Below, one piece after another: positions 9,194-38,632 of a stretch of DNA of 64,000 bases. The translations under genes were made by a program, and so were the position numbers. Where the stretch lies: sequence record PP047754, one strand, 5' to 3'. The notes under the pieces were generated by a model that was not told where the DNA came from, ran no database searches, and worked only from the letters and a program-made list of their open reading frames with translations. This DNA is from Escherichia phage KEP4. Numbering within the stretch: the first letter of the stretch is position 1; every line of letters begins with the position of its first letter.

Positions 9194-9616
9194 ATGAAGA
9201 AGTATATCGTTCTTATAACGGGTTCCCGTTCTATAACTGAGCGGGATAAAATCTTCGCCAAACTGGATGAACTGTTAGATCCCCACGAGATCGAAACTTT
9301 TATAGAAGGTGAAGCGGTTGGTGTGGACTTGATATCTCGTGATTGGTGTGAAATCAATTATGTTCATGTTACACCAATGGAGATCCCTAAGAATTATCAC
9401 ACGATATATGGGAAAGGCGCAGGAAACCAACGTAACAAAGATATGTTAGACAAAGCTACAACCCTGGCCAAACAAAAAGGTCTTGAGGTCTTTGGAATTG
9501 CATTATGGGATGGTTCGTCTACTGGGACGCAAGACATGATTACCCGCATGAAAAAAGCAGGTGTCAATGTCAATATCACTCTCATGGGCAAACCCAAAAC
9601 CAAACGATTGTTATAA
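9194..9616 (+). CDS. SLOG/DUF2493-like Rossmann-fold protein, 140 aa
   Basis: N-terminal KKYIVLITGSRS motif typical of the LOG/DprA/YspA-type SLOG fold; assignment by motif only. Confidence 0.35.
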   Translation: MKKYIVLITGSRSITERDKIFAKLDELLDPHEIETFIEGEAVGVDLISRDWCEINYVHVTPMEIPKNYHTIYGKGAGNQRNKDMLDKATTLAKQKGLEVFGIALWDGSSTGTQDMITRMKKAGVNVNITLMGKPKTKRLL

Positions 9617-17435: not shown

Positions 17436-17900
17436 ATGGCGCGTAATACGCTGGACATCTTAAAACTTTCAGCTGTCAACGATGAGGCCAGCATTGTTGA
17501 CTGTATGGTTGAAGTTCAATTGAACCAAGACAAACCAGGGATTTTCCTGGGTATCAAGGAAACGCTGAGTCGGATAGGGGTTAACACTCGTCAAGAGCCT
17601 AACACCTTGTATCAAACGTGCCATATCCTGCATAAATTTGGCAGATATCACATCGTGCATTTCAAGCATTTGTTCATGCTAGATGGGCACTACAACGGCT
17701 TTACGCGTGAAGATGTCCTGCGTATGAATCGGATTATACGGCTTCTGGAGCAATGGAATATGGTTAAGATCTTGCATCCGGAACAAATAACCGAAGTGGC
17801 TGACATGTCTCGGATCAAAGTTGTAAAACATGACCAAGTTTCTGAGTGGAAATTGGTTCCAAAATACACTATTCGCCCAAGTCGGGCAAAAAGCGAATAA
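17436..17900 (+). CDS. regA: translational repressor RegA
   Basis: Matches T4 RegA in KETLSRIGV ... LYQTCHILHKFGRYHIVHFKHLF ... SEWKLVPKYTI. Confidence 0.85.
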   Translation: MARNTLDILKLSAVNDEASIVDCMVEVQLNQDKPGIFLGIKETLSRIGVNTRQEPNTLYQTCHILHKFGRYHIVHFKHLFMLDGHYNGFTREDVLRMNRIIRLLEQWNMVKILHPEQITEVADMSRIKVVKHDQVSEWKLVPKYTIRPSRAKSE

Positions 17901-17916
17901 CTGGAGTCGCTATATT

Positions 17917-18780
17917 ATGACAACTACATTTAATAAAAACGTGAGATTGAATTTGGCTTTTGGTAATGCGGCTGGAGATATTACAGCCCCTGACTTCGGT
18001 AAAATTCGCAATCAGGCCAAACTGGTTCTGGAAGAGACCCGCGAATTACTGGAAGCGGCTTATTTCGATCATGACATCAAACTTGAGCTGGTGGCAACTC
18101 CAAAAGAAGACACCGATGATGTTGATATGGATAAAATCCTGAAAGCCATCATGGACGCTCAGGGTGATATCACAACTGTTAATGACGGCGTGGCCCATAT
18201 CGCTGGTTTTAATGGTGATGAATGTTTACAACGTGTGTTTGCCTCTAACATGAGCAAATTTATTCGCTCAGAAGATGAAGTCGGTCCGGCACTGGAATAT
18301 TATTATTCACGCGGTTTCCCAGATGGCCAGTTACGCGTTGAAGGTGAATTCCCTCAGGCATGCATCAAAGTGAATGAGACTGTGATGTGGAATGGAAAAG
18401 AATATCCGAAAGGAAAATTCCTGAAAAACATGGCTGTGTTCAAAGAGCCTGATTTCTCTGATATGCTGACGAATACCCCTTCCCGTCAGATCAATGACAT
18501 CGTTGCCAGCATGGCAATTGAAGAAGGTCAGGTATTTGTTGATGATCTGAACGGCGTGGCGTTGGTATCTCCAAAAACGTTGGAAGTAATTCTTTCTATG
18601 GCAGTTGAAAAATCTTCTCGACCCGTAGATGTTAACGGCCAAATTGAAAGTTATGTGCCAGCGTATATCATTAACGATACCAATATGCCTAAGCTGTGTG
18701 GGGTGTGGGGTGCTAATGTTCGTGTATACGCGTGCGCACCTGTTCAAAACACTGTGACACACCTCTCTCGCTTCGATTAA
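17917..18780 (+). CDS. hypothetical protein, 287 aa; N-terminal MazG/all-alpha NTP-pyrophosphatase-like motif (tentative)
   Basis: AKLVLEETRELLEA ... VDMDKILKAIMD resembles the EExxE ... ExxD signature; not verified by search. Confidence 0.3.
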   Translation: MTTTFNKNVRLNLAFGNAAGDITAPDFGKIRNQAKLVLEETRELLEAAYFDHDIKLELVATPKEDTDDVDMDKILKAIMDAQGDITTVNDGVAHIAGFNGDECLQRVFASNMSKFIRSEDEVGPALEYYYSRGFPDGQLRVEGEFPQACIKVNETVMWNGKEYPKGKFLKNMAVFKEPDFSDMLTNTPSRQINDIVASMAIEEGQVFVDDLNGVALVSPKTLEVILSMAVEKSSRPVDVNGQIESYVPAYIINDTNMPKLCGVWGANVRVYACAPVQNTVTHLSRFD

Positions 18781-18804
18781 TATAATCCGTTATTCACTAA
18801 ACAA

Positions 18805-18830
18805 CAGAGGCTATAATGGCCTCTGTTTTT
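18805..18830 (+). terminator. rho-independent terminator
   Basis: cagaggc-tataatg-gcctctg hairpin followed by TTTTT. Confidence 0.6.
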
Positions 18831-18849
18831 GTATTCTAGAGAGGATACC

Positions 18850-20076
18850 ATGAAAGATAAACCGTGTGACATTCCTTATTGCGGTGTTCGGGAAGCTAAA
18901 ATTAAATCTGCACATCCCATGTTAAGCCCATTCCATAAACAACTCGCATACGAATGGATGAGCGAGCGCTATAAGATCCACGTGAGAAAGGACGTCCAGC
19001 GTCTTCCTGCTCCTTGGACGGATAATCCCATACTACGGCAGGTCAAGTTCTGTAACGTCCGGAGAGAGCACGACAGGCAGTCTCTTAACCTGATCAATAA
19101 TATCGTCAAGAACGACGCTCTGAGCATGGCCGACAAAATGTTCAACTGTGTTCTGTTCCGCATGTTCAATCTCTGGGATCCGATCAAGGTGGCGCTCGAG
19201 GGCGCTATGACGATTTCAGACTTTGCTAAAATCAACCTGGACGAGACCCGCGCCCGTCTTCAGAAGTTTGAATCTGAAGGTGGTAAGATCTTCACCAACG
19301 CATTCAACACAGGCGGTCTAAAACAATGTCTGGCGTTCCCCGAACTTGTTGTCAACCACAAGGAGCAGCGCTTCGGTGGCATGATGGTTAAGGTACACCG
19401 TGTTGGCCAGGGTGTCGTGGATGAATTGGATTACAAGGTCGCCAAGAAGCTGGTTGAAGAGAATCCTGGGGAGTACACCATTGAGGGTTGGGAGCCGTAC
19501 ATGCCAATGCGTGTCATCCGCTCTTTGAAGGCATTCGTCAACAAGTACCCCGATTACTTCAATGATCTTTTACGTCTTGACTCTCCGCTGAAAGTTTACC
19601 AGCGCATGTATGATGACATTGAAGGGCTTGGGCCATTCCTGGCATATCAGATCTGGGTGGACTTCACATACATCCCTGAGTATCCATTCAGTGAGAATCA
19701 TTTCACTATTGCTGGTCCAGGTTGCCGTGCGGGTATTGACCTGATGTTCCTGGATAAGGACGGCATGACTCATGAAGAATGCATATTCTGGGTTCGTGAT
19801 CATCAGTATCAATTGTTTGCTCAGTATGGTTATGTCCAAGAGCAGTTCTGGTCAGCCGAAGCGCCGGAAGATCAGTGCATGAACGTCATGCAGCTGGAGA
19901 ACATGTTCTGTGAATTGAGCAAGTACACCCGCTGTGTTGAGGCTATCGAGAGAGGGGAAAAGCCACGCGGCAAGGTCGGTTATGATGGAGGCGGGAGATA
20001 CAAAAATCGATGCGATGAAATTGTCCTCAATCGCGGATCGGTCAATTTATTAGATCGTTTGAAGAAACCTGAATAA
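18850..20076 (+). CDS. hypothetical protein, 408 aa, with helix-hairpin-helix-like motif; candidate DNA base-modification enzyme
   Basis: GAGAGGA RBS; DIEGLGPFLAYQIWVDF fits an hxGhGxxxA HhH signature as in DNA-glycosylase-like folds; no P-loop. Confidence 0.3.
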   Translation: MKDKPCDIPYCGVREAKIKSAHPMLSPFHKQLAYEWMSERYKIHVRKDVQRLPAPWTDNPILRQVKFCNVRREHDRQSLNLINNIVKNDALSMADKMFNCVLFRMFNLWDPIKVALEGAMTISDFAKINLDETRARLQKFESEGGKIFTNAFNTGGLKQCLAFPELVVNHKEQRFGGMMVKVHRVGQGVVDELDYKVAKKLVEENPGEYTIEGWEPYMPMRVIRSLKAFVNKYPDYFNDLLRLDSPLKVYQRMYDDIEGLGPFLAYQIWVDFTYIPEYPFSENHFTIAGPGCRAGIDLMFLDKDGMTHEECIFWVRDHQYQLFAQYGYVQEQFWSAEAPEDQCMNVMQLENMFCELSKYTRCVEAIERGEKPRGKVGYDGGGRYKNRCDEIVLNRGSVNLLDRLKKPE

Positions 20077-20189: not shown

Positions 20190-22205
20190 ATGGCAGAATT
20201 CAAACCCTTCGCAACGGCAGTTAATAACAACGTGCTGGCGATGTCCGCAACTGGTCTGTTCATGACCAATATCGATAAAGATGCTCTTTGGGATCTGTAT
20301 CTGGCATCTTTCCCTGCTGGTACCAACCCGCTCTACCGTGAGCGTACTGAGCACGACTGCACCTGCTGTAAACAATTCATCCGTAACATCGGCGGTGTGG
20401 TCACCATCGACTCCGACCTGAACGTAATTTCTATCTGGGACAACATTGATCTGGGTAATGAATATGACGTGGTGGCTGCGGCTCTTTCCGCGTATGTCAA
20501 ACAACACGCAATCGTCGATGTTTATTTTAACGATTCTGCCAAAGTCGGCCTGTCTCACAATCACGAAATGAAAGACGGCAATGTCCGCACCTACAACCAC
20601 TTCCACACCGACCTGCTGGGTAGCTATGTTCTGCGTCCGGACGCAATCGCTTCGAAAAAAGGTGAAATCCGCCAGGCTATTGAATTGTTTGAACGCGGTC
20701 TGCGTGAAATTACTCTGGAATCAGCTGAAATCGTTCTGGAACTGATTGACCAGAATTCTCTGTATCGCGGCGCAGAACACAAAGCAGCAGTGAAGGGATT
20801 TGTTGAAACCAAAAAGGCATATGAACAAATCCCCGAATCAGCCCGTTCTCTGTGGGCATGGCATACTGGATACCGTTCAAACAATCATGTTCCACACGGC
20901 ATCCGTAACACAGTTATCGGCACTCTGCTGACAGATATCAGCGAAGGCGTGGAACTGGAAAAGGCTGTTAAATCGTTTGAATCCAAAGTTGCTCCGGCGA
21001 ACTACAAACGTCCGACAGCGCTGGTTTCAAAATCCATGATCGAAAACGCTCAGAAAGAAGTTATTGCTCTGGGTTTGGAAGACTCACTGGCGCGTCGTTA
21101 TGCGGTTTATGATGATCTGACAATCAACAACGTTCTGTTCGCAGATCTGGCTGCTCAGAAAGCGATGGATCCGTTTGCTCAGCTGGCTGCCGAAGTGAAA
21201 ACTCCGACCAAGTCCCTGGAAAAAGTTGAAGAGATCAGCGTTGATGATTTCCTGAGCAATGTTCTGCCAAAAGCGCATTCAATGGAAGTGCTTGTAGAGA
21301 ATTCTCATACTAGCAACCTGATGTCCCTGGTTGCTCCGGCGAACCCAGATGCGCCTAACCTGTTCAAGTGGAACAACGGTTTCTCCTGGTCTTACAACGG
21401 TGAAGTGACCGATTCCATTAAAGAACGTGTAAAGGCTGCTGGCGGTAAAGTTGACGGGTATCTGCGCGTTTCCTTGGCGTGGCACAATAACGACGACCTC
21501 GATCTGCATATGTTCAACAACATGGAGCACGTTTACTTCCGCGATCGCCGCTCTATGACAGGTGCCCATCTGGATATCGATATGAACGGTATGGATGGTA
21601 TTGATCCAAACCGCGCTCCGGTGGAAAATATCATCTTTACAGATGAAAGCAAGCTGCGCGATGGTGAATACCGTTTCGAAATCCACAACTACAATCAACG
21701 TGAAAAAATCGACGAAGGGTTTGAAGTCGAAGTAGAATACAAAGGCGCAACGCATCGTTTCAGCCATCCTGGCCTGAAAGATCAGGGACGTATCACCGCA
21801 GTCATCTTGACTGTTAAAGACAAACAAGTTGTTGGCATTAAGTCCGAACTGGCTAATGTTGATAAGTCTAAAGAAGTTTGGGGTATCAAGACAGCGACCT
21901 TCCAGAAAGTACAGCTGGTCCTGAACTCACCAAACCATTGGGATGGCGAGCAGACAGGCAACAAGCACGTGTTCTTCATCCTGGAAGGTTGTGCTAATCC
22001 TGAAGGTACTCGTGGTTTCTACAACGAATATCTGAAGCCAGAACTGGATAAACATCGTAAGGTTTTTGAAATGTTGGGTAGTAAAATGAAAGTCCAGCCG
22101 AATGAAAACCAACTGTCCGGTCTGGGATTCTCGACGACGCAACGCAACCATGTGTTCGTCAAAGTGTCCGGCGCGTTTAACCGTACTGTAAAAGTCATTT
22201 TCTAA
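20190..22205 (+). CDS. hypothetical protein, 671 aa, highly-expressed-type codon usage
   Basis: Strong AGGAAG RBS and cassette-like upstream region; N-terminal Cys cluster HDCTCCKQF; no recognised catalytic motif. Confidence 0.5.
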   Translation: MAEFKPFATAVNNNVLAMSATGLFMTNIDKDALWDLYLASFPAGTNPLYRERTEHDCTCCKQFIRNIGGVVTIDSDLNVISIWDNIDLGNEYDVVAAALSAYVKQHAIVDVYFNDSAKVGLSHNHEMKDGNVRTYNHFHTDLLGSYVLRPDAIASKKGEIRQAIELFERGLREITLESAEIVLELIDQNSLYRGAEHKAAVKGFVETKKAYEQIPESARSLWAWHTGYRSNNHVPHGIRNTVIGTLLTDISEGVELEKAVKSFESKVAPANYKRPTALVSKSMIENAQKEVIALGLEDSLARRYAVYDDLTINNVLFADLAAQKAMDPFAQLAAEVKTPTKSLEKVEEISVDDFLSNVLPKAHSMEVLVENSHTSNLMSLVAPANPDAPNLFKWNNGFSWSYNGEVTDSIKERVKAAGGKVDGYLRVSLAWHNNDDLDLHMFNNMEHVYFRDRRSMTGAHLDIDMNGMDGIDPNRAPVENIIFTDESKLRDGEYRFEIHNYNQREKIDEGFEVEVEYKGATHRFSHPGLKDQGRITAVILTVKDKQVVGIKSELANVDKSKEVWGIKTATFQKVQLVLNSPNHWDGEQTGNKHVFFILEGCANPEGTRGFYNEYLKPELDKHRKVFEMLGSKMKVQPNENQLSGLGFSTTQRNHVFVKVSGAFNRTVKVIF

Positions 22206-22636: not shown

Positions 22637-22663
22637 AACCCCGCCGTGTGCGGGGTTTCTTTT
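22637..22663 (+). terminator. rho-independent terminator
   Basis: aaccccgc-cgtgt-gcggggtt hairpin followed by TCTTTT. Confidence 0.6.
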
Positions 22664-22674
22664 GGACAAAAATC

Positions 22675-23085
22675 ATGAAATCTATTACGTGTGATTACTG
22701 CGGTCAACCTGCCCAATACGTCGGGTGTGATGTTGTATACCCCCACCGCCCCGACCTCCGCAATCTGAAGTTCTGGGTATGCTCGCCATGCGACGCTCGT
22801 GTGGGTTGCCATACCCATGGGGATGGTAGACAACCTCTGGGAAGGATGGCGAATGCCGCTCTCCGTGCTGCTAAGCAGGAAGCTCATAGATCGTTTGACC
22901 CTATCTGGAAAGGTGGGCAGAGGAGCAGGAGTGATGCTTACAGCTGGCTGGCTCATAATCTGGGGATCAAGAAGCGCGATTGCCATATCGGCTTGTTCGA
23001 TATCGATATGTGCCGTAAAGTAGTCGCTGTGTGTAATCAACTAAAGGCACAAGATAATGTCAAAGGAAATACAAGAAGCATTTGA
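22675..23085 (+). CDS. zinc-finger protein (phage DUF3268-like), 136 aa
   Basis: CDYCGQPA ... VYPHRPDL ... FWVCSPCDARVGCH Cys-rich pattern. Confidence 0.45.
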   Translation: MKSITCDYCGQPAQYVGCDVVYPHRPDLRNLKFWVCSPCDARVGCHTHGDGRQPLGRMANAALRAAKQEAHRSFDPIWKGGQRSRSDAYSWLAHNLGIKKRDCHIGLFDIDMCRKVVAVCNQLKAQDNVKGNTRSI

Positions 23086-23308
23086 AAATTTATCTCAGGT
23101 AATGACCGACTGTAACCGCCGGAATTATTGTGATGAAGCGTATACCAAATTGAAAACTACTGTTGAAACCGAGCTGGCAGGTCTTTCCGTTTTCAAAGAT
23201 ATTCAGACCGAAGCGCTATATCTGTCGGATGAAGATTTAAGGCGTTGCCCCCGCAAGATTTACCAATTACTGGATCGTTTGGTGAAAGTGGGGGTGAATA
23301 ATGGGTAA
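23057..23308 (+). CDS. hypothetical protein, 83 aa
   Basis: ORF overlapping its neighbours at both ends. Confidence 0.3.
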   Translation: MSKEIQEAFENLSQVMTDCNRRNYCDEAYTKLKTTVETELAGLSVFKDIQTEALYLSDEDLRRCPRKIYQLLDRLVKVGVNNG

Positions 23309-24026
23309 TCGTGAAGGGATTAAACTCACACCAGAACTTCTGAAGTCACATATTGCTGAAGTGATTTATGAAGACCGTGAAGTTGGTGGTCACCGCGTCA
23401 TTACATGCCATTTCAAGATGGACAATGGGTTCGTTGTGTGGGGTAAGAATAGTTCCACATCGGTAGACCCTGCCAACTTCGATGAAGAAATGGGCAAGCA
23501 GCTGGCCTATGAAAAGACCTTTTCTCAACTGTGGGAACTGGAAGCATATCGCGCGATGGTAGAAAAGCAGATCATCGATGTGTCTGCCGAAGATGCTAAG
23601 ATCAACATTGATGAATATGTGTCAGAAAGGGAAGCGATACATGAGATGGGTGGTTCTGAATTTCTTAAGGGTAAAGGACAATCCATCGTGTTTCGTCATC
23701 CCAAAGATCCAAGTCGGGGATTTCGCGTTGAATTTGTTCGCACCGATAATGAACGTTATAACGAACGACGCAATGGTGAGGCACGATCTTTGGTGGAAGC
23801 GTATCTTCGCTCGTTCATGACTTCTGAAGAACTAAATTCTGAACTTGTCTTGCGTTTGGCGAAAACGTGTAATGCTGCTTCAGGGGATTATCCGTGGTGT
23901 GACCTGTCAGAAGACAAACGCCAAGCAGCCTGTGATCGTGTTAAGAAATTCTTGTTAGATCCGAAAGCCCAACCTGGTGATTCCGTAGGGGCACTGTATA
24001 GAGCCATTGTGGTGTCCTACTTGTAA
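23301..24026 (+). CDS. hypothetical protein, 241 aa
   Basis: ORF with ATG start and GGTG RBS. Confidence 0.5.
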   Translation: MGNREGIKLTPELLKSHIAEVIYEDREVGGHRVITCHFKMDNGFVVWGKNSSTSVDPANFDEEMGKQLAYEKTFSQLWELEAYRAMVEKQIIDVSAEDAKINIDEYVSEREAIHEMGGSEFLKGKGQSIVFRHPKDPSRGFRVEFVRTDNERYNERRNGEARSLVEAYLRSFMTSEELNSELVLRLAKTCNAASGDYPWCDLSEDKRQAACDRVKKFLLDPKAQPGDSVGALYRAIVVSYL

Positions 24027-24293
24027 TTCTTCAAAAGTCTTTCAAAATCAATAACGTCCGGCAAAATGCTGGGCGTTTCAATTAATAAGCCAAGGTATAA
24101 TGGCCCAACTGAAAACGCGGGGGAATTTCTTTGTCCAAGCCATTCATTCGTTCCGGAGTTGATTCTCTAGACTCCCAATTTAAGCCGAGCGAAGTTTTAA
24201 TCCAACAAATTGAAACCAATCGTGAATTCATAGAACACATGTTGGCAAAGCCGGAAGGTGAAGCCGCTCAAACCACCAAAGAAGGTAATAACG

Positions 24294-26510
24294 ATGATTG
24301 AATCATTAACATTTAAAAATGCGGTAGCAACCGTCGCGCCGTCTAACCATGTAATCGTTGTGGATATCTCCGGTTCCATGTACCGTTCACTTCCTGAAGT
24401 TCGCAAGCATCTGAAGGAAAATCTCCCGTCTCTGGTTAAACCAGAAGATACCGTCAGCATTCTTTACTTTTCATCCCGTGGTGATTTCGGTACGGTATTC
24501 GCTGGCCGTCAGATCAATAGCGCGACCGATCTCAGTGAAATCAATAAACTGATTGACCGCTTCCTGCAACCGTCCGGTTGTACGGGATTTGTAGAACCTC
24601 TGAAGTTGGCTGCTGAAACCGCGTTGAGCCTGAACAAACCTGGTTATGTCAATAACCTGGCGTTCATGACCGACGGCTATGACAACTGCTGGCGCTCTAA
24701 TGAAATTCTGGCAGCAGCTGAAGTACTGCCCAAGGCGTTCGATAATATTACATTCATCGAATATGGCTGGTATTGTAACCGCGAACTTCTGGCTCTGATG
24801 TCCGAGCGTTCTGGCGCGACTCACGTGTTTGCCGAAGGTCAGACTGAATATCAGACCGAACTGGAAAACGTACTGAAATCATCTACGCCGAAAGTGGTTG
24901 TTGATGTTCCCCTGGTTTACACTCATGCCATCTACGTTGAAAACGGCGTGGCAACTGTGCTAGCCGTACAACCCGATGAAGAACACCCGATTGGCCACGT
25001 CAGCATCCCTGAAAGCGTTTCTCAGCTGTGGGTTGTAAACCCTAACATGATCGACCAGCTGGATAATCTGGCAGACACCCAGGCGGCATACGTGCTGGCA
25101 TTCTATGGCGTGTACACCATGGACGCCGATCTGGTCTGGGCCGCGCTGAAGAAGACGGGTGACGTCCGCTTCATCAAACAATACAGCAACTGTTTCACCA
25201 AGCAGGACTATTCCAACATCAAAGTCGATCTGACCCAGGCTATCGTGGATGAAACTCTACGCGGCGTAGATGGCATCGATTACAATATGGTTCCAGCTGA
25301 AGATGCAACGACCATTGTTGATGTCTTGACCTACCTGGCCGAAGCCGATGTCTCTGTTGTCACTAAGCATCCATTGTTCTCTTACAACAGCATCGGTCGC
25401 GGCACTGTGCAGAAAGTTGATGACACTGAAGACAAGCTGGCTGAACAAATCGCCGAAGCCAAAACCAAAGCAGAGCGTAAAGCGCTGGCTCTCAAACTGG
25501 CTGAGCACGAAGATTGGACACCGGAATTTACTCCGGTTGATGACAAAGGGATTGTCCCAATTAGCAATCTGGTCTACAATTCAGAGCGCCCTAACATCAG
25601 CATTCAGACCGTTCAGCATGGGACGGTTGTTGTGCCGGAGTTCGTACAGAAGAAATATGAACTCCCTGAAGAACTGGGAACCTGGCGTTATCGTAATTAC
25701 ACCATCGTCAAAGATGGAATCATCAACCTGAAGACGATGCCGATTACTGCCGAATCTCCGATTGTCCGAGCTAAGGTTGTCCAAGATTTGATCGCCATGG
25801 GCGTTAATGTATTTGGTGGACCGGAAATCTTCATCGTTAATTTAGAAAGCGTTCCGATGGTCAACCGCGCCATGACCAAGAACATCAGTGCTGCCGAATT
25901 CTTCGCTGACAACGTTCGTCGCGAAGCGCTGAAGGCAAAACAGAAAGTTCTGAAATTCTATCGTGATGAACTGGTTGGCAAAGGCAATGCAACTGGTCTG
26001 GCTTCTAAATATGGTAAAGAAGCCGCCGATTTCTTGTCGGCAAATGGCATTCGCGACTACGGGTTCTCGCCGAAAACTACTTCTGTGGAATCAACCGATG
26101 TCTACATGAGCCGTGAGCTGAATGTGAAAATCAAAGGTGCTTCGTCGCTGCCGAGCATTGCGTCAGTTATCAAAAAGCAAGCAGATGGTAAAAAACTGAA
26201 TGTCGCTGATCAGTTGATTGCCAATGCTTTGGCCGAATACGACGCTTTTGTTAAATCGCCAATGATCACCAGCGTACCTGAAGAGACTCAGAAAAAGCTG
26301 ATTGAAAGCTGGATCGGGGACGCAGCAAAAGCGGCCATTAACGAAGTCCGCGCCCTGAACAAAACTCTGTCTAAAGTAGTTTACGGCATCGTCGCTGGTC
26401 ATGGTTGGTTCACTGATTTGGATCTGGAAGAGTCTACGATGGATGTAGAAGTTGATGGGGTGAAATACACCGTCACTGCCGAACTGGCCGAAAAAGAAAT
26501 CAAAATCTAA
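24294..26510 (+). CDS. von Willebrand factor A (vWA) domain protein, 738 aa
   Basis: MIDAS motif VVDISGSM (DxSxS) near the N-terminus, then MTDGYDN; ORF-track start 24258 is a GTG, ATG 24294 chosen. Confidence 0.6.
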   Translation: MIESLTFKNAVATVAPSNHVIVVDISGSMYRSLPEVRKHLKENLPSLVKPEDTVSILYFSSRGDFGTVFAGRQINSATDLSEINKLIDRFLQPSGCTGFVEPLKLAAETALSLNKPGYVNNLAFMTDGYDNCWRSNEILAAAEVLPKAFDNITFIEYGWYCNRELLALMSERSGATHVFAEGQTEYQTELENVLKSSTPKVVVDVPLVYTHAIYVENGVATVLAVQPDEEHPIGHVSIPESVSQLWVVNPNMIDQLDNLADTQAAYVLAFYGVYTMDADLVWAALKKTGDVRFIKQYSNCFTKQDYSNIKVDLTQAIVDETLRGVDGIDYNMVPAEDATTIVDVLTYLAEADVSVVTKHPLFSYNSIGRGTVQKVDDTEDKLAEQIAEAKTKAERKALALKLAEHEDWTPEFTPVDDKGIVPISNLVYNSERPNISIQTVQHGTVVVPEFVQKKYELPEELGTWRYRNYTIVKDGIINLKTMPITAESPIVRAKVVQDLIAMGVNVFGGPEIFIVNLESVPMVNRAMTKNISAAEFFADNVRREALKAKQKVLKFYRDELVGKGNATGLASKYGKEAADFLSANGIRDYGFSPKTTSVESTDVYMSRELNVKIKGASSLPSIASVIKKQADGKKLNVADQLIANALAEYDAFVKSPMITSVPEETQKKLIESWIGDAAKAAINEVRALNKTLSKVVYGIVAGHGWFTDLDLEESTMDVEVDGVKYTVTAELAEKEIKI

Positions 26511-26518
26511 ATCTAATT

Positions 26519-26540
26519 GGCGGGGAAACCCGCCTTTACT
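26519..26540 (+). terminator. stem-loop after vWA gene
   Basis: ggcggg-gaaa-cccgcc hairpin followed by TTTACTTT. Confidence 0.45.
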
Positions 26541-26548
26541 TTCAGGAA

Positions 26549-26866
26549 ATGAATATGAGCAACAAACCGACTTATGTTGATGTCATGCGCGATTTGGCCC
26601 AATACGCATGTGACAACCTGAACATGGAAACTTGGCGCGACGGCGATCATAAAGAAAAGTTCGATAATATCGACGACAACATCGATGCGTTGGCTCCTCT
26701 TCGGGCCAAGAGCGATCTCGGCGGTGATGATCTTGACATGATTGAACTCATCATGGAAGTTGAAGAACAATATGATGTTGAAATCAGTGATGACTGGGTA
26801 GGCAAACATGGTGATGATCCCACGCTCGGCGAATTAGCTGAATTGGTAGTTGCCCTCAGCAAGTAA
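26549..26866 (+). CDS. acyl carrier protein-like protein with Ser-to-Asp at the attachment site, 105 aa
   Basis: DLGGDDLDMIELIMEVEEQYDVEISDD aligns with E. coli ACP [27 protein letters not shown]; the phosphopantetheinylated Ser is Asp; AGGA RBS. Confidence 0.55.
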   Translation: MNMSNKPTYVDVMRDLAQYACDNLNMETWRDGDHKEKFDNIDDNIDALAPLRAKSDLGGDDLDMIELIMEVEEQYDVEISDDWVGKHGDDPTLGELAELVVALSK

Positions 26867-36759: not shown

Positions 36760-37530
36760 ATGGGTATGAATTTTGTAGACAGGGGTGATAACGTCACCAA
36801 ATATTTCACTGACGAAGATAACGATCGAGTTGTGGGGATATTGCGTGATTGGATCCCTGCTCGTAAAAAGGCATTAGCCGAAGGAACACCCCTACCAAGA
36901 ATCCCCAATTATGTGGCCATGAATGTTCAGATGATAATCAAGAATATGAGTATGCGCTACAACTACCGTGATTATCCATATCGTGAAGACATGGTGAGTG
37001 AAGCGGTTGTGAACATCCTTCGTTACCTTCACACCTTTGATGTTAGCCATATCGGCAAGAAAGGAAAGATCAACTTCTTCTCTTGGGTGACTATGTGTGC
37101 CGATCGCTCATTCGCCAAGAAACTCACGAGTGAAGAAGAACACAACTACATTAAATTGCGTTCCTTTGAAGAAGCAGGTGGGTTCGCAGCTTTATCGGAT
37201 GACCCAGACTTCCAACAACAAACCTTCGTTGATAGCACTGGGATAACGATGGACTTTCGTGAACGCATCGGTAATTTCGAAAATAAGAAAGAAGCCCAGC
37301 GTGAAAAGGAACGCCAAAAGCAAACGGCTATCAAAGAAGAGGAAAAGAATAAGAAAATCCCTCGCGGTATACTTCAATGTCTTACGAAGAGTGAAAATAC
37401 CATTACTGCTGACGCCGAAGATAATTCAGATAATGACTTCGGCTCTACTCAATTTAGTCTTGAAGATATAATGGACAGTCCCACATTGTTAGCCGAATCA
37501 GTTGGAGAAAAGAATAATGGCGATTGCTAA
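36760..37530 (+). CDS. late-transcription sigma factor gp55
   Basis: NYVAMNVQMIIKNMSMRYNYRDYPYREDMVSEAVVNILRYLHTFD parallels the T4 gp55 N-terminal region; adjacent to gp47/gp46 as in T4. Confidence 0.6.
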   Translation: MGMNFVDRGDNVTKYFTDEDNDRVVGILRDWIPARKKALAEGTPLPRIPNYVAMNVQMIIKNMSMRYNYRDYPYREDMVSEAVVNILRYLHTFDVSHIGKKGKINFFSWVTMCADRSFAKKLTSEEEHNYIKLRSFEEAGGFAALSDDPDFQQQTFVDSTGITMDFRERIGNFENKKEAQREKERQKQTAIKEEEKNKKIPRGILQCLTKSENTITADAEDNSDNDFGSTQFSLEDIMDSPTLLAESVGEKNNGDC

Positions 37531-38632
37531 AATTGGCGATTTACACATCGGGAGCCGCAATGGTTCCCGTTACGTTCGTGAATTCATAAAGAATTATCTC
37601 ATCAACTATTTTATTCCCGAATTGGTAGATGCAGACATTAAAGAAGTTTGGCAATTCGGCGACACATTTGATGTTCGTAAATTTATGTACGGGCGCGACA
37701 AAGATTGGTTGAAAGATGAACTGACTCCAGCCCTGAGAAAGGCGGGTATCAAATGGAATGGCATCGTTGGAAACCATGATATCACCTTAGAAGAATCTAA
37801 CCGTATCAACTGGCCATCCTATCTGAATGAATTAGCGCCAGACGTCTATCATTATTACAGTGAACCCACTGAAGTTTCGATTGAAGGCGAAAAGGTATTG
37901 CTTCTCCCATGGATCAATAAAGAGAATTATGATGCATCTGTTAAAGCGATACAAGATACAGACGCCAAGTACTGTTTTGCGCATCTGGAGTTGGCAGGGT
38001 TCAAAATGTACCAGTCCTCTGTTTGTGATAAAGGTCAGATCGACGTGGCGCTCCTTTCCAAGTTCGAACGCGTGGATACCGGACATTTCCATACCCGTTC
38101 GATGGAAGGTAACATTCAGTATATTGGGACTCCTTATCACCTTACCTGGGAAGACCATAAAGACGGGACGAACCGAGGATTCTATGTAGACGACATGAAA
38201 GGCGGGGAATTGTTTATTCCCAACAACGAGCAACAAACGTTGTTCCGATTCATCGAATACGACTACACCCAAATGTCTTCCGACACCGAAGGAAACTGGA
38301 TTGACCCAGATTGGCTAAACAATGGTTTGGGTATTGAAGGGCAAATCGTTAAAGTGATTGTACAGAACCGCGATAATGCCAAGCATTATGAAAAGTTCTG
38401 CGACGCGCTGAAGCGCTGTAAATGCATCGATTACAACTTTATAGATCGGACTATCACAGTCTCGTCTGAGAAGGTAGAAGTCACTGAAGAGATGGTGGCG
38501 ACTGATGCTGTGGAAGTCCTGAAGAAAGATATCCGCGCCGCCAATAATATCCAGCGCCCTGAAAATGTTTGCAAATTAGCAGAACAATTCTATAATGCTG
38601 CCCAACAACGCCTGAACACATTGGATGCATAA
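37517..38632 (+). CDS. recombination endonuclease subunit gp47 (Mre11/SbcD-like)
   Basis: N-terminal IGDLHIG phosphoesterase motif, GNHD; start overlaps the gp55 3' end. Confidence 0.8.
   Translation: MAIAKIGDLHIGSRNGSRYVREFIKNYLINYFIPELVDADIKEVWQFGDTFDVRKFMYGRDKDWLKDELTPALRKAGIKWNGIVGNHDITLEESNRINWPSYLNELAPDVYHYYSEPTEVSIEGEKVLLLPWINKENYDASVKAIQDTDAKYCFAHLELAGFKMYQSSVCDKGQIDVALLSKFERVDTGHFHTRSMEGNIQYIGTPYHLTWEDHKDGTNRGFYVDDMKGGELFIPNNEQQTLFRFIEYDYTQMSSDTEGNWIDPDWLNNGLGIEGQIVKVIVQNRDNAKHYEKFCDALKRCKCIDYNFIDRTITVSSEKVEVTEEMVATDAVEVLKKDIRAANNIQRPENVCKLAEQFYNAAQQRLNTLDA

What the first reader, a model, noticed from the sequence alone, without database searches (positions are those of the whole stretch)
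24294..26510. Large vWA (MIDAS) domain protein with no obvious ATPase partner
A 738-aa protein with an N-terminal vWA domain (VVDISGSM MIDAS motif) preceded by a 270-bp non-coding region. vWA proteins usually work with AAA+ (MoxR/CobS-like) ATPases, but no AAA+ partner lies adjacent; the neighbours are unknown proteins and the ACP-like gene. The long C-terminal region has no motif I can recognise.
Basis: seen in the sequence. Interest (0 to 1): 0.5.

Follow-up and report, generated by a model that had tools for sequence, protein, structure and literature searches.

The report
Orphan phage vWA protein, unknown tail
A 738-residue cytoplasmic protein of a Salmonella/E. coli Kuttervirus phage joins a metal-dependent protein-binding (vWA/MIDAS) head of the ArnB/Sec23-24 type to a 420-residue tail that resembles no known structure; it has no ATPase partner, is very widely and tightly conserved in large phages, and its function is untested.

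Summary
The ORF (24294-26510, +, 738 aa) and its VVDISGSM MIDAS motif are real. The "270-bp non-coding" gap is not empty. It holds a terminator-like hairpin and a conserved 56-aa ORF whose stop overlaps the vWA start codon.

No MoxR/CobS/BchI-type ATPase was found in the window, in a complete close relative, or beside nine distant homologues. No neighbour, including the ACP-like gene, co-varies with it.

The fixed architecture occurs in about 500 phage genomes and 1,367 50%-identity clusters, and almost never in cellular genomes. It is the best-conserved protein between a Kuttervirus and a T4-like Pseudotevenvirus (48%).

Best guess: a stand-alone, MIDAS-dependent adaptor acting inside the infected cell, with the novel tail as effector or scaffold. 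Function remains untested. I rate it a new variant of a known kind, of moderate interest.

The parts
24053..24077 (+). Terminator-like RNA hairpin followed by UUUCAAUU. It closes the upstream gene set, which ends at 24026, and marks the start of a separate unit.
   Evidence: MFE -15.9 kcal/mol, z=-4.08, 0 of 200 shuffles fold as well. Sequence read. The terminator function is inferred.
24096..24101 (+). TATAAT -10-like hexamer with no recognisable -35 element; a possible promoter for the 56-aa ORF + vWA pair.
   Evidence: Read from the sequence. The consensus scan did not call it. Weak, inferred only.
24131..24301 (+). Conserved 56-aa acidic small ORF (TTG start, ends ...EGNNDD). Its stop codon overlaps the vWA start codon by 8 nt (ATGATTGA), which suggests translational coupling.
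   Evidence: It is annotated in relatives (phrog_8656 in SeF3a). tblastn finds 209 Ackermannviridae records down to 45% identity; where the neighbouring feature is named, it is directly upstream of the vWA gene. No Pfam or NCBIfam hit.
24294..26510 (+). vWA-domain protein gene, 738 aa plus stop. Member of phrog_2426.
   Evidence: PHROG match E=0, full length; 240 homologues, full length conserved.
24294..24881 (+). vWA (Rossmann-like alpha/beta) domain, residues 1-196. MIDAS residues are D24/S26/S28 (nt 24363-24377), T97 (nt 24582-24584) and D127 (nt 24672-24674).
24882..25253 (+). Beta-sandwich (residues ~197-249) and helical bundle (residues ~250-320). Together with the vWA domain they form an ArnB/Sec23-24-type three-domain core.
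25254..26507 (+). C-terminal module, residues 321-738. It is a mixed beta-rich region plus long helical hairpins, with no detectable relative of known structure or function. Invariant polar residues are R432, N434, S436, D474, K551, D602, Y604 and S617.
26519..26534 (+). G+C-rich hairpin (GGCGGG-GAAA-CCCGCC) followed by UUUACUUUC, 9 nt after the vWA stop codon. It is a terminator-like end of the 56-aa ORF + vWA unit and lies before the ACP-like gene.
   Evidence: consensus scan; centroid -13.8 kcal/mol, z=-3.0. Function inferred.

Best explanation
The gene encodes a soluble, acidic, cytoplasmic phage protein that acts without an AAA+ ATPase as a metal-dependent protein-protein adaptor.

How I think it works:
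- Its N-terminal 320 residues form an ArnB/Sec23-24-type core: vWA + beta-sandwich + helical bundle.
- The intact MIDAS site in that core holds a divalent cation and captures an acidic side chain of a partner protein.
- The 420-residue C-terminal module is a previously undescribed domain found only in this family. It supplies the second activity: scaffolding, oligomerisation, or an as yet unrecognised effector or enzymatic function.
- The gene is transcribed with a translationally coupled 56-aa ORF as a short unit of its own, bracketed by two hairpins. It sits among the replication and nucleotide-metabolism genes, so it probably acts inside the infected cell before or during DNA replication, not in the virion.
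- No phage gene co-varies with it, and its carrier phages infect hosts as different as enterobacteria, Rhizobium and Bacillus. The ligand is therefore most likely a widely conserved host protein or a core protein of T4-like replication or assembly.

Shown: the fold, the MIDAS conservation, the lack of an ATPase partner, the distribution and the conservation.
Inferred: that the MIDAS binds a protein ligand, the timing of expression, the role of the C-module, and the identity of the target.
For: - MIDAS: D24/S26/S28/T97/D127 are invariant across 59 sequences down to 34% identity.
- Cytoplasmic and soluble: pI 5.0, no hydrophobic segment (maximum KD19 1.56), no signal peptide.
- No MoxR/CobS/BchI-type ATPase in the window or in the relative's whole genome.
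- No conserved neighbour in nine distant loci, with a working positive control.
- ACP-like gene, DUF3268 protein, GUERRERO_90 and the phosphatase do not share its phyletic pattern.
- Strong selection on both halves: fixed architecture in 1,367 clusters; the best-conserved of 45 proteins shared between a Kuttervirus and a Pseudotevenvirus (48.3% identity, 684 bits); one of 114 core genes of Vi01-like phages (PMC10892097).
- Not virion-associated: absent from the Sajous1 virion mass-spectrometry list (PMC10892097). No T4-type late promoter (TATAAATA) nearby. Same strand and cluster as clamp loader, helicases, RNase H and gp46/47-like genes.
- Own transcription unit: hairpins on either side and an 8-nt stop/start overlap with the 56-aa ORF.
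Against: - No ligand, activity or phenotype is known. No paper in the held library studies the family.
- An intact MIDAS is also typical of AAA+-coupled vWA proteins, so it does not by itself show independence from an ATPase. A host MoxR ATPase cannot be excluded.
- The C-module has several invariant polar residues that could form a catalytic site, so 'adaptor' may understate it.
- Expression timing is inferred from gene position only.
'No known fold' holds for the PDB only.
- Some depositors label homologues 'minor tail protein'.
Confidence: 0.4

Rival explanations
1. The protein is a cochaperone or adaptor that hijacks a host MoxR-class AAA+ ATPase (for example RavA in enterobacteria), taking the place of the host vWA partner (ViaA) to remodel a host or phage complex.
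Against: - Domain order is reversed relative to ViaA, CobT, BchD, NorD and CbbO: here the vWA domain is N-terminal.
- The closest structural relatives are ATPase-independent (ArnB, ITIH, Sec24, 4FX5).
- The family occurs in phages of Bacillus, Rhizobium and enterobacteria, whose MoxR repertoires differ.
- No Pfam hit to CobT, ViaA or CbbQ-associated families.
Confidence: 0.12
2. The protein is a nucleic-acid-transaction scaffold. As with the vWA domains of Ku70/80 or TFIIH p44/p34, it would organise or regulate a helicase, nuclease or DNA-modification complex. In the Kuttervirus that might be linked to thymidine hypermodification.
For: - The gene lies among replication, recombination and nucleotide genes, 4 kb downstream of aGPT-Pplase1 (Pfam HMUDK_hel, E=1.5e-83) and a MazG-like gene.
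- In two distant loci an RNA ligase gene lies directly downstream or within about 2.5 kb downstream.
Against: - The protein is acidic throughout (pI 5.0; C-module pI 5.3), and no nucleic-acid-binding fold was detected.
- The hypermodification genes are not neighbours in other lineages.
- The family also occurs in phages with different DNA chemistries. Takahashivirus as a dU-DNA phage is from my own knowledge; Pseudotevenvirus is.
Confidence: 0.15
3. The protein is a virion (tail or baseplate) protein that uses its vWA domain as an adhesin.
For: Several GenBank records label homologues 'minor tail protein'. vWA tip adhesins of pili (PitA, SpaC, RrgA, PilB) are structural hits.
Against: - Not among the proteins detected by LC-MS/MS of CsCl-purified Sajous1 virions (PMC10892097).
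- Located in the early/middle gene cluster, with no TATAAATA late promoter.
- No signal peptide or transmembrane segment.
- Flanked by non-structural genes in all nine other contexts.
Confidence: 0.06
4. The protein is a chelatase subunit (CobT/BchD-like, annotated 'magnesium chelatase' in phage SeF3a).
Against: - No CobS or BchI ATPase, and no CobN or BchH, anywhere in the genome.
- No Pfam CobT or Mg-chelatase hit.
- The vWA domain is N-terminal rather than C-terminal.
- The match to BchD is limited to the generic vWA fold.
Confidence: 0.02

Closest known systems
ArnB / ArnE (Sulfolobus acidocaldarius; PDB 8S05, 5A8J) and the structural-genomics protein 4FX5 (Catenulispora acidiphila)
   Different: - Sequence identity is only 12-17%.
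- ArnB ends after the helical bundle (380 aa). The phage protein carries a further 420-aa module with no counterpart.
- ArnB has a dedicated zinc-finger/FHA partner (ArnA) and is controlled by a kinase and a phosphatase. No conserved partner of that kind accompanies the phage gene. The nearby DUF3268 zinc-finger protein does not co-vary with it.
Sec23/Sec24 COPII core (for example PDB 1M2V, 3EH2)
   Different: - The Sec23/24 trunk has no functional MIDAS (own knowledge).
- Sec23/24 has an N-terminal zinc finger and a C-terminal gelsolin domain.
- The phage C-module shows no gelsolin-like or other known fold.
- Sec23/24 is a eukaryotic membrane-coat protein.
Inter-alpha-trypsin inhibitor heavy chains (ITIH1 6FPY, ITIH4 9C4F)
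   Different: ITIH proteins are secreted eukaryotic proteins with a VIT domain and a different C-terminal part. Only residues ~11-219 of the phage protein align.
AAA+-coupled vWA cofactors: CobT, BchD, ViaA, NorD, CbbO (partners of CobS, BchI, RavA, NorQ, CbbQ)
   Different: - No cognate ATPase exists.
- The vWA domain is N-terminal rather than C-terminal.
- There is no sequence-family match.
- Only the bare domain aligns.
phrog_2426 (PHROGs v4, 'unknown function')
   Same: Full-length member: E=0, 1259 bits, residues 1-738 against profile positions 2-736 of 736.
   Different: None. The family is catalogued but uncharacterised.

Membership tests
vWA (von Willebrand factor A) domain superfamily | Rossmann-like alpha/beta fold recognised by the family profile | tested here: met
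vWA (von Willebrand factor A) domain superfamily | Complete MIDAS motif: DxSxS ... T ... D | tested here: met
   D24, S26, S28, T97 and D127 are invariant in 59 homologues. Metal binding itself was not tested.
ArnB / Sec23-24-core type vWA proteins | vWA followed by a beta-sandwich and a helical bundle, packed as one unit | tested here: met
   In the model, strands span 200-248 and five helices span 250-318. Alignments of 251-300 residues to 4FX5, ArnB, ITIH1 and Sec24.
ArnB / Sec23-24-core type vWA proteins | Beta-sandwich topologically split by the vWA insertion (N-terminal strands beta1-beta2 lie before the vWA domain) | tested here: inconclusive
   The model has one short strand (residues 3-6) before the first vWA strand. 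Model coordinates could not be inspected.
ArnB / Sec23-24-core type vWA proteins | Dedicated zinc-finger (and FHA) partner, with phospho-regulation of the helical bundle | tested here: not met
   No conserved neighbour in nine loci. The nearby DUF3268 zinc-finger protein has an unrelated phyletic distribution. Phosphorylation cannot be tested with these tools.
AAA+-coupled vWA cofactors (CobT/BchD/ViaA/NorD/CbbO) | Cognate MoxR/CobS/BchI-class AAA+ ATPase encoded adjacent to the gene or elsewhere in the genome | tested here: not met
   Walker-A scans of the window and of the whole Guerrero genome, plus Pfam on the candidates, gave only helicases, a DnaB-like protein, PhoH and the 5-hmdU kinase. 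There is no such annotation in the Guerrero or CfP1 genomes. No conserved AAA+ gene lies beside nine distant homologues.
AAA+-coupled vWA cofactors (CobT/BchD/ViaA/NorD/CbbO) | vWA domain at the C-terminus, after an ATPase-interacting N-terminal region, with a sequence match to the family profile | tested here: not met
   The vWA domain occupies residues 1-196. No CobT, Mg-chelatase or ViaA Pfam hit at E<=1.
Virion / tail vWA adhesins | Physical presence in purified virions | not testable with these tools
   Literature only: the protein is not listed among the Sajous1 virion LC-MS/MS proteins (PMC10892097).
Virion / tail vWA adhesins | Late-gene context (T4-type late promoter, structural gene cluster) | tested here: not met
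   TATAAATA occurs only at 9612, 9823 and 60183 in the window. The neighbours are replication and nucleotide-metabolism genes.
phrog_2426 | Full-length match to the family profile | tested here: met
   E=0, 1259 bits, residues 1-738 against profile positions 2-736 of 736.

The most novel reading that the evidence does not exclude
The 420-residue C-terminal module is a genuinely new fold carrying an enzymatic or effector activity. Candidate active-site residues are the invariant R432, N434, S436, D474, K551, D602, Y604 and S617. Under this reading the whole protein is a new class of phage host-takeover or counter-defence factor: the MIDAS head seizes a conserved host protein and the tail acts on it. 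That would explain why it is the most tightly conserved protein shared by two different families of large myoviruses, and why it appears to have spread between them.
Probability: 0.25. Interest if true: 0.7.

Novelty: new variant of a known kind. Interest (0 to 1): 0.45.

Why it matters
- The family is large. It occurs in about 500 sequenced phages: Kuttervirus and other Ackermannviridae used in Salmonella and E. coli O157 biocontrol, Klebsiella Slopekvirus therapy candidates, Pseudotevenvirus, Rhizobium T4-like phages and Bacillus Takahashivirus. A profile search found 1,367 clusters at 50% identity.
- It is a core gene of Vi01-like phages.
- It is conserved more strongly than the capsid, portal or DNA polymerase between two phage families. 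Yet nobody knows what it does.
- It offers a confident structural model whose second half matches nothing in the PDB, so it is a candidate new domain.
- Working out its MIDAS ligand would reveal either a general host vulnerability exploited by large lytic phages or a missing component of their replication or assembly machinery.
- It also corrects database labels such as 'magnesium chelatase', 'minor tail protein' and 'virulence' that have no support.

Tried and rejected
- **CobT/BchD/Mg-chelatase reading.** Rejected: no ATPase or chelatase subunits, wrong domain order, no family hit.
- **Phage-encoded MoxR partner elsewhere in the genome.** Strict and relaxed Walker-A scans plus Pfam on 10 candidates and unknowns gave nothing.
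- **Conserved operon partner.**
  - phmmer of 17 window neighbours against ORFs of nine distant loci gave no hits, and the positive control worked.
  - An all-against-all comparison of those loci found only the vWA gene shared.
- **ACP-like protein as partner.** It is confined to Ackermannviridae, with 270 records against 503 for the vWA protein. A terminator-like hairpin lies between the two genes.
- **DUF3268 zinc-finger protein as an ArnA-like partner.** Its distribution is unrelated, across Pseudomonas, Vibrio and Enterococcus phages.
- **Phyletic-profile search.**
  - I intersected the Guerrero and CfP1 proteomes, which share 45 proteins.
  - I tested the non-core candidates GUERRERO_90 and the GUERRERO_19 phosphatase. 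Both are far more widespread than the vWA protein.
- **Identity of the C-module.** All of the following were negative:
  - profile search against PDB sequences;
  - Pfam on 11 family members;
  - NCBIfam and PADLOC;
  - internal-repeat test with hhalign.
- **Exhaustive profile search for the C-module in other architectures.** The top 150 hits all place the module at the C-terminal end, and most are 700-820 aa with the same architecture. The shorter ones may be truncated. Weaker hits were not listed, so alternative architectures remain unexamined.
- **Cellular homologues.** Only four loci were found in 185,579 species genomes. Two of them are phage-sized or plasmid-sized contigs.
- **Literature.** No functional, transcriptomic or structural study of the family was found. 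One search failed.
- **Sigma-70 and T4-late promoter scans.** They gave no convincing promoter upstream of the gene.
Full report
**Where the window comes from.** A 7-kb stretch around the finding is 99.7% identical to Salmonella phages GEC_vB_GOT, vB_SentM_sal1 and SeF3a. It is 99.2% identical to E. coli O157 phage Sa157lw. All are ~157-kb Kuttervirus (ViI-like, Ackermannviridae) genomes. The protein itself is 100% identical to that of Sa157lw. Depositors call it 'hypothetical', 'vWA domain protein', 'magnesium chelatase', 'minor tail protein' or 'proximal thread matrix protein'. That is, it has no agreed name.

**The observation.**
- The ORF 24294-26510 (+) exists and encodes 738 aa.
- The ATG at 24294 is the likely start. 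Homologues begin with the same 'MI' residues, and GAAGG lies 8 nt upstream.
- Pfam finds only a vWA domain, at residues 20-183 (PF00092, E=8e-7, above the gathering score).
- The complete MIDAS set (D24-x-S26-x-S28, T97, D127) is invariant in a 59-sequence alignment that reaches 34% identity.

The one part of the observation that fails is the '270-bp non-coding region'. It contains three things:
- a stable hairpin at 24053-24077 followed by a U-rich tract (-15.9 kcal/mol, z=-4.1);
- a TATAAT hexamer at 24096;
- a 56-aa ORF (24131-24301). It is conserved as protein down to 45% identity in 209 Ackermannviridae genomes. Where the neighbouring feature is named, it sits directly upstream of the vWA gene.

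The small ORF's TGA stop overlaps the vWA ATG (ATGATTGA). A second hairpin (26519-26534, followed by UUUACUUUC) comes 9 nt after the vWA stop. I infer that the 56-aa ORF and the vWA gene form a short bicistronic unit of their own.

**Structure of the N-terminal part.** With a 59-sequence alignment, AlphaFold2 gave a confident model: mean pLDDT 87.9, pTM 0.72, no disordered segment. Residues 1-196 are the vWA domain, 200-248 a beta-sandwich and 250-318 a bundle of five helices.

**The C-terminal module.** Residues 321-738 were modelled separately with a 25-sequence alignment and again folded confidently (pLDDT 89.1, pTM 0.81). The module is a beta-rich region (about 412-520), long helical hairpins (533-583 and 637-701) and a terminal beta-hairpin.
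- Profile searches of PDB sequences found nothing below E=0.8.
- Pfam on the query and ten diverse members found nothing in this region.
- NCBIfam and PADLOC found nothing.
- Profile-profile comparison of six sub-segments showed no internal duplication (all probabilities below 7%).

The module contains conserved blocks: 'RPNIS', 'YRNYTIVKDGI' and 'GIRDYGFSPK...ESTDxY...KIKGxSSLPS'. Its invariant polar residues are R432, N434, S436, D474, K551, D602, Y604 and S617. On present evidence it is an undescribed domain.

**The missing ATPase.**
- A Walker-A scan of the window found only two helicases, PhoH and two small ORFs.
- I assembled the complete genome of phage Guerrero, which is 98.9% identical over the 7-kb query, from five fetched pieces and scanned it. 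A pattern that matches MoxR, RavA, CobS and BchI P-loops hit only helicases, a DnaB-like helicase, PhoH, a P-loop kinase and a few chance matches.
- Pfam identified the kinase as the 5-hmdU DNA kinase. It found no AAA_3, AAA_5, CbbQ or Mg-chelatase domain in the candidates or in six large unknown proteins.
- Nothing in the Guerrero or CfP1 annotations suggests a MoxR, CobS or BchI gene.

**Distribution and conservation.**
- The word-indexed search found 240 homologues. All 120 that were listed are full length except two: a 482-aa fragment and one 676-aa protein.
- tblastn found the gene once per genome in 503 phage records. These are Ackermannviridae (Salmonella, Escherichia, Dickeya, Serratia and some Klebsiella phages), the Straboviridae genus Pseudotevenvirus (shown for CfP1), KP15-like ~175-kb Klebsiella phages (Slopekvirus by my own knowledge), Rhizobium T4-like phages (23-24% identity) and a Bacillus Takahashivirus (27%).
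- An exhaustive profile search with the C-module alone found 1,367 cluster representatives, 836 of them below 1e-30. In the 150 best, the module lies at the C-terminal end, in most cases of a 700-820-aa protein. The shorter hits may be truncated.
- Among 185,579 species genomes, only four loci matched. One is a 178-kb contig, about the size of the 180-kb CfP1 genome, that shares genes beside the vWA gene with the CfP1 locus. Another is a 225-kb contig. The family is essentially phage-only.
- It is one of the 114 core genes of Vi01-like phages (PMC10892097, Table 5).
- Among the 45 proteins shared by Guerrero and the T4-like CfP1, the vWA protein is the best conserved: 48.3% identity over 755 aa, 684 bits. 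It ranks ahead of NrdA (42%), the major capsid protein (37%), the portal (34%) and DNA polymerase (32%).
- Its identity to other Ackermannviridae genera is little higher: 51-56% to Bue1 and 3M. So either the gene has moved between families or it is under unusually strong constraint. I cannot tell which.

**Search for a partner.**
- None of 17 genes flanking the vWA gene in the window has a homologue within 8-10 kb of the vWA gene in nine distant loci. These comprised metagenomic contigs, CfP1, Internexus and three genome contigs.
- The positive control recovered the vWA gene in all nine. An all-against-all comparison of those loci found only the vWA gene in common.
- The ACP-like gene is confined to Ackermannviridae (270 records).
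- The DUF3268 zinc-finger gene is spread over unrelated Pseudomonas, Vibrio and Enterococcus phages.
- Two other well-conserved non-core genes are far more widespread than the vWA gene: GUERRERO_90 with 1,437 records and the phosphatase or macro-like GUERRERO_19 with 2,490.
- The only thing consistently attached, and only within Ackermannviridae, is the 56-aa upstream ORF.

**Cellular location and timing.**
- The protein is acidic (pI 5.0, all sub-domains pI 4.4-6.0). It has no hydrophobic segment or signal peptide, and the C-module has no cysteine.
- It lies on the strand and in the cluster that carry the clamp, clamp loader, helicases, RNase H, gp46/47-like nuclease, RegA, a MazG-like protein and aGPT-Pplase1.
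- The T4-type late promoter motif TATAAATA occurs only three times in the window, none near this gene.
- LC-MS/MS of CsCl-purified Sajous1 virions did not list it (PMC10892097).

I infer an intracellular protein expressed early or in the middle period. No transcriptome for this phage family was found.

**Most likely mechanism.**
- Shown: an ArnB/Sec23-24-type vWA core with a strictly conserved MIDAS; a second conserved module of unknown fold; no ATPase; no co-varying phage gene; cytoplasmic character; very strong conservation.
- Inferred:
  - The MIDAS holds Mg2+ or Mn2+ and binds an acidic residue of a protein ligand, as in ITIH, integrin I-domains and CbbO (general knowledge of MIDAS function).
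  - The ligand is a broadly conserved host protein or a T4-core phage protein.
  - The C-module provides scaffolding or an effector activity.

I give this about 0.4. The rivals are:
- hijack of a host MoxR ATPase (0.12);
- a replication, repair or DNA-modification scaffold in the manner of Ku or TFIIH p44 (0.15);
- a virion adhesin (0.06);
- a chelatase subunit (0.02).

The remainder is 'something else'.

**Comparison with what is known, and novelty.** The family is already catalogued (phrog_2426, 'unknown function') and widely annotated as vWA-containing. The existence of the gene is therefore not new. Four things appear to be undescribed in the library I could search:
- assignment of the head to the ArnB/Sec23-24 structural class;
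- the demonstration that the 420-aa tail matches no solved structure or curated family;
- the genome-wide absence of an ATPase or any co-varying partner;
- its rank as the most conserved protein between two phage families.

I rate it a new variant of a known kind and of moderate interest (0.45). It is a well-defined, testable, very common piece of phage dark matter, but it has no phenotype or mechanism yet.

Noticed in passing
window 26549-26866 (+): The 105-aa 'acyl carrier protein' matches PP-binding (Pfam E=5e-7). However, the 4'-phosphopantetheine attachment serine (the DSL motif of E. coli AcpP) is Asp or Glu (DDL/DEL) in the window protein and in all nine phage homologues aligned (56-96% identity). 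It is therefore a serine-less, very acidic ACP look-alike that cannot be a conventional carrier. It is confined to Ackermannviridae (270 records). It could be an ACP mimic or decoy.
   Followed up: partly
window 24131-24301 (+): A conserved 56-aa acidic ORF (TTG start, C-terminus ...EGNNDD) has a stop codon that overlaps the vWA start codon. It occurs in 209 Ackermannviridae genomes and has no family hit. Guerrero annotates it oddly as 'putative acyl carrier protein'. Its acidic C-terminal tail is a conceivable MIDAS ligand, but that is speculation.
   Followed up: partly
Guerrero versus CfP1 whole genomes (L001, L003-L006 versus L014-L017): The vWA protein is the single best-conserved of the 45 proteins shared between an Ackermannviridae phage and a Straboviridae phage (48% identity), ahead of NrdA, capsid, portal and DNA polymerase. 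This suggests either inter-family gene transfer or extreme constraint.
   Followed up: partly
window 20190-22205 (+): A 671-aa protein (phrog_1735 in SeF3a) lies between aGPT-Pplase1 and the vWA unit. Some records label it 'putative DNA-directed RNA polymerase', but it has no Pfam, NCBIfam or PADLOC hit at all.
   Followed up: no
window 17830-20076 (+); Guerrero record 37098-37760: Thymidine-hypermodification genes are present. aGPT-Pplase1 (18829-20076) hits Pfam HMUDK_hel at E=1.5e-83, next to a 316-aa 'MazG-like' protein that has no Pfam hit. The 5-hmdU DNA kinase (PF18748, E=1.6e-116) and a second Pplase lie elsewhere in the relative's genome.
   Followed up: no
L001 14128-14487 (Guerrero) versus window ~24027-24130: Guerrero and several other relatives carry an insertion of about 359 bp, with an extra 119-aa ORF (GUERRERO_123), between the 241-aa gene and the 56-aa ORF. 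It is absent from the window. The megablast matches to these relatives are split into two pieces there.
   Followed up: no
L018 (NZ_JBHSCL010000010.1, 178,077 bp) and L019 (NZ_BDOQ01000007.1, 225,409 bp): Contigs filed under the bacterial assemblies Flagellimonas marina and Novimethylophilus kurashikiensis encode full-length family members (48% and 34% identity). The 178-kb contig is about the size of the 180-kb CfP1 genome and shares genes flanking the vWA gene with the CfP1 locus. It is probably a phage genome within a bacterial assembly.
   Followed up: partly
L011 (Logan SRR26673770 contig, 87,311 bp): A family member (35% identity) sits on a contig that also carries TrfA (a plasmid replication initiator), a full-length sigma-70, a class I tRNA synthetase and a response regulator. 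This is an unusual, possibly plasmid-like or giant-phage context.
   Followed up: no
window 23301-24026 (+) and 22648-23085 (+): The 241-aa protein has an N-terminal N4 gp49 / Sf6 gp66 family domain (PF13876, E=1.7e-12). The 145-aa protein is a DUF3268 zinc-finger protein (E=5.6e-37) found in 670 very diverse phages.
   Followed up: partly
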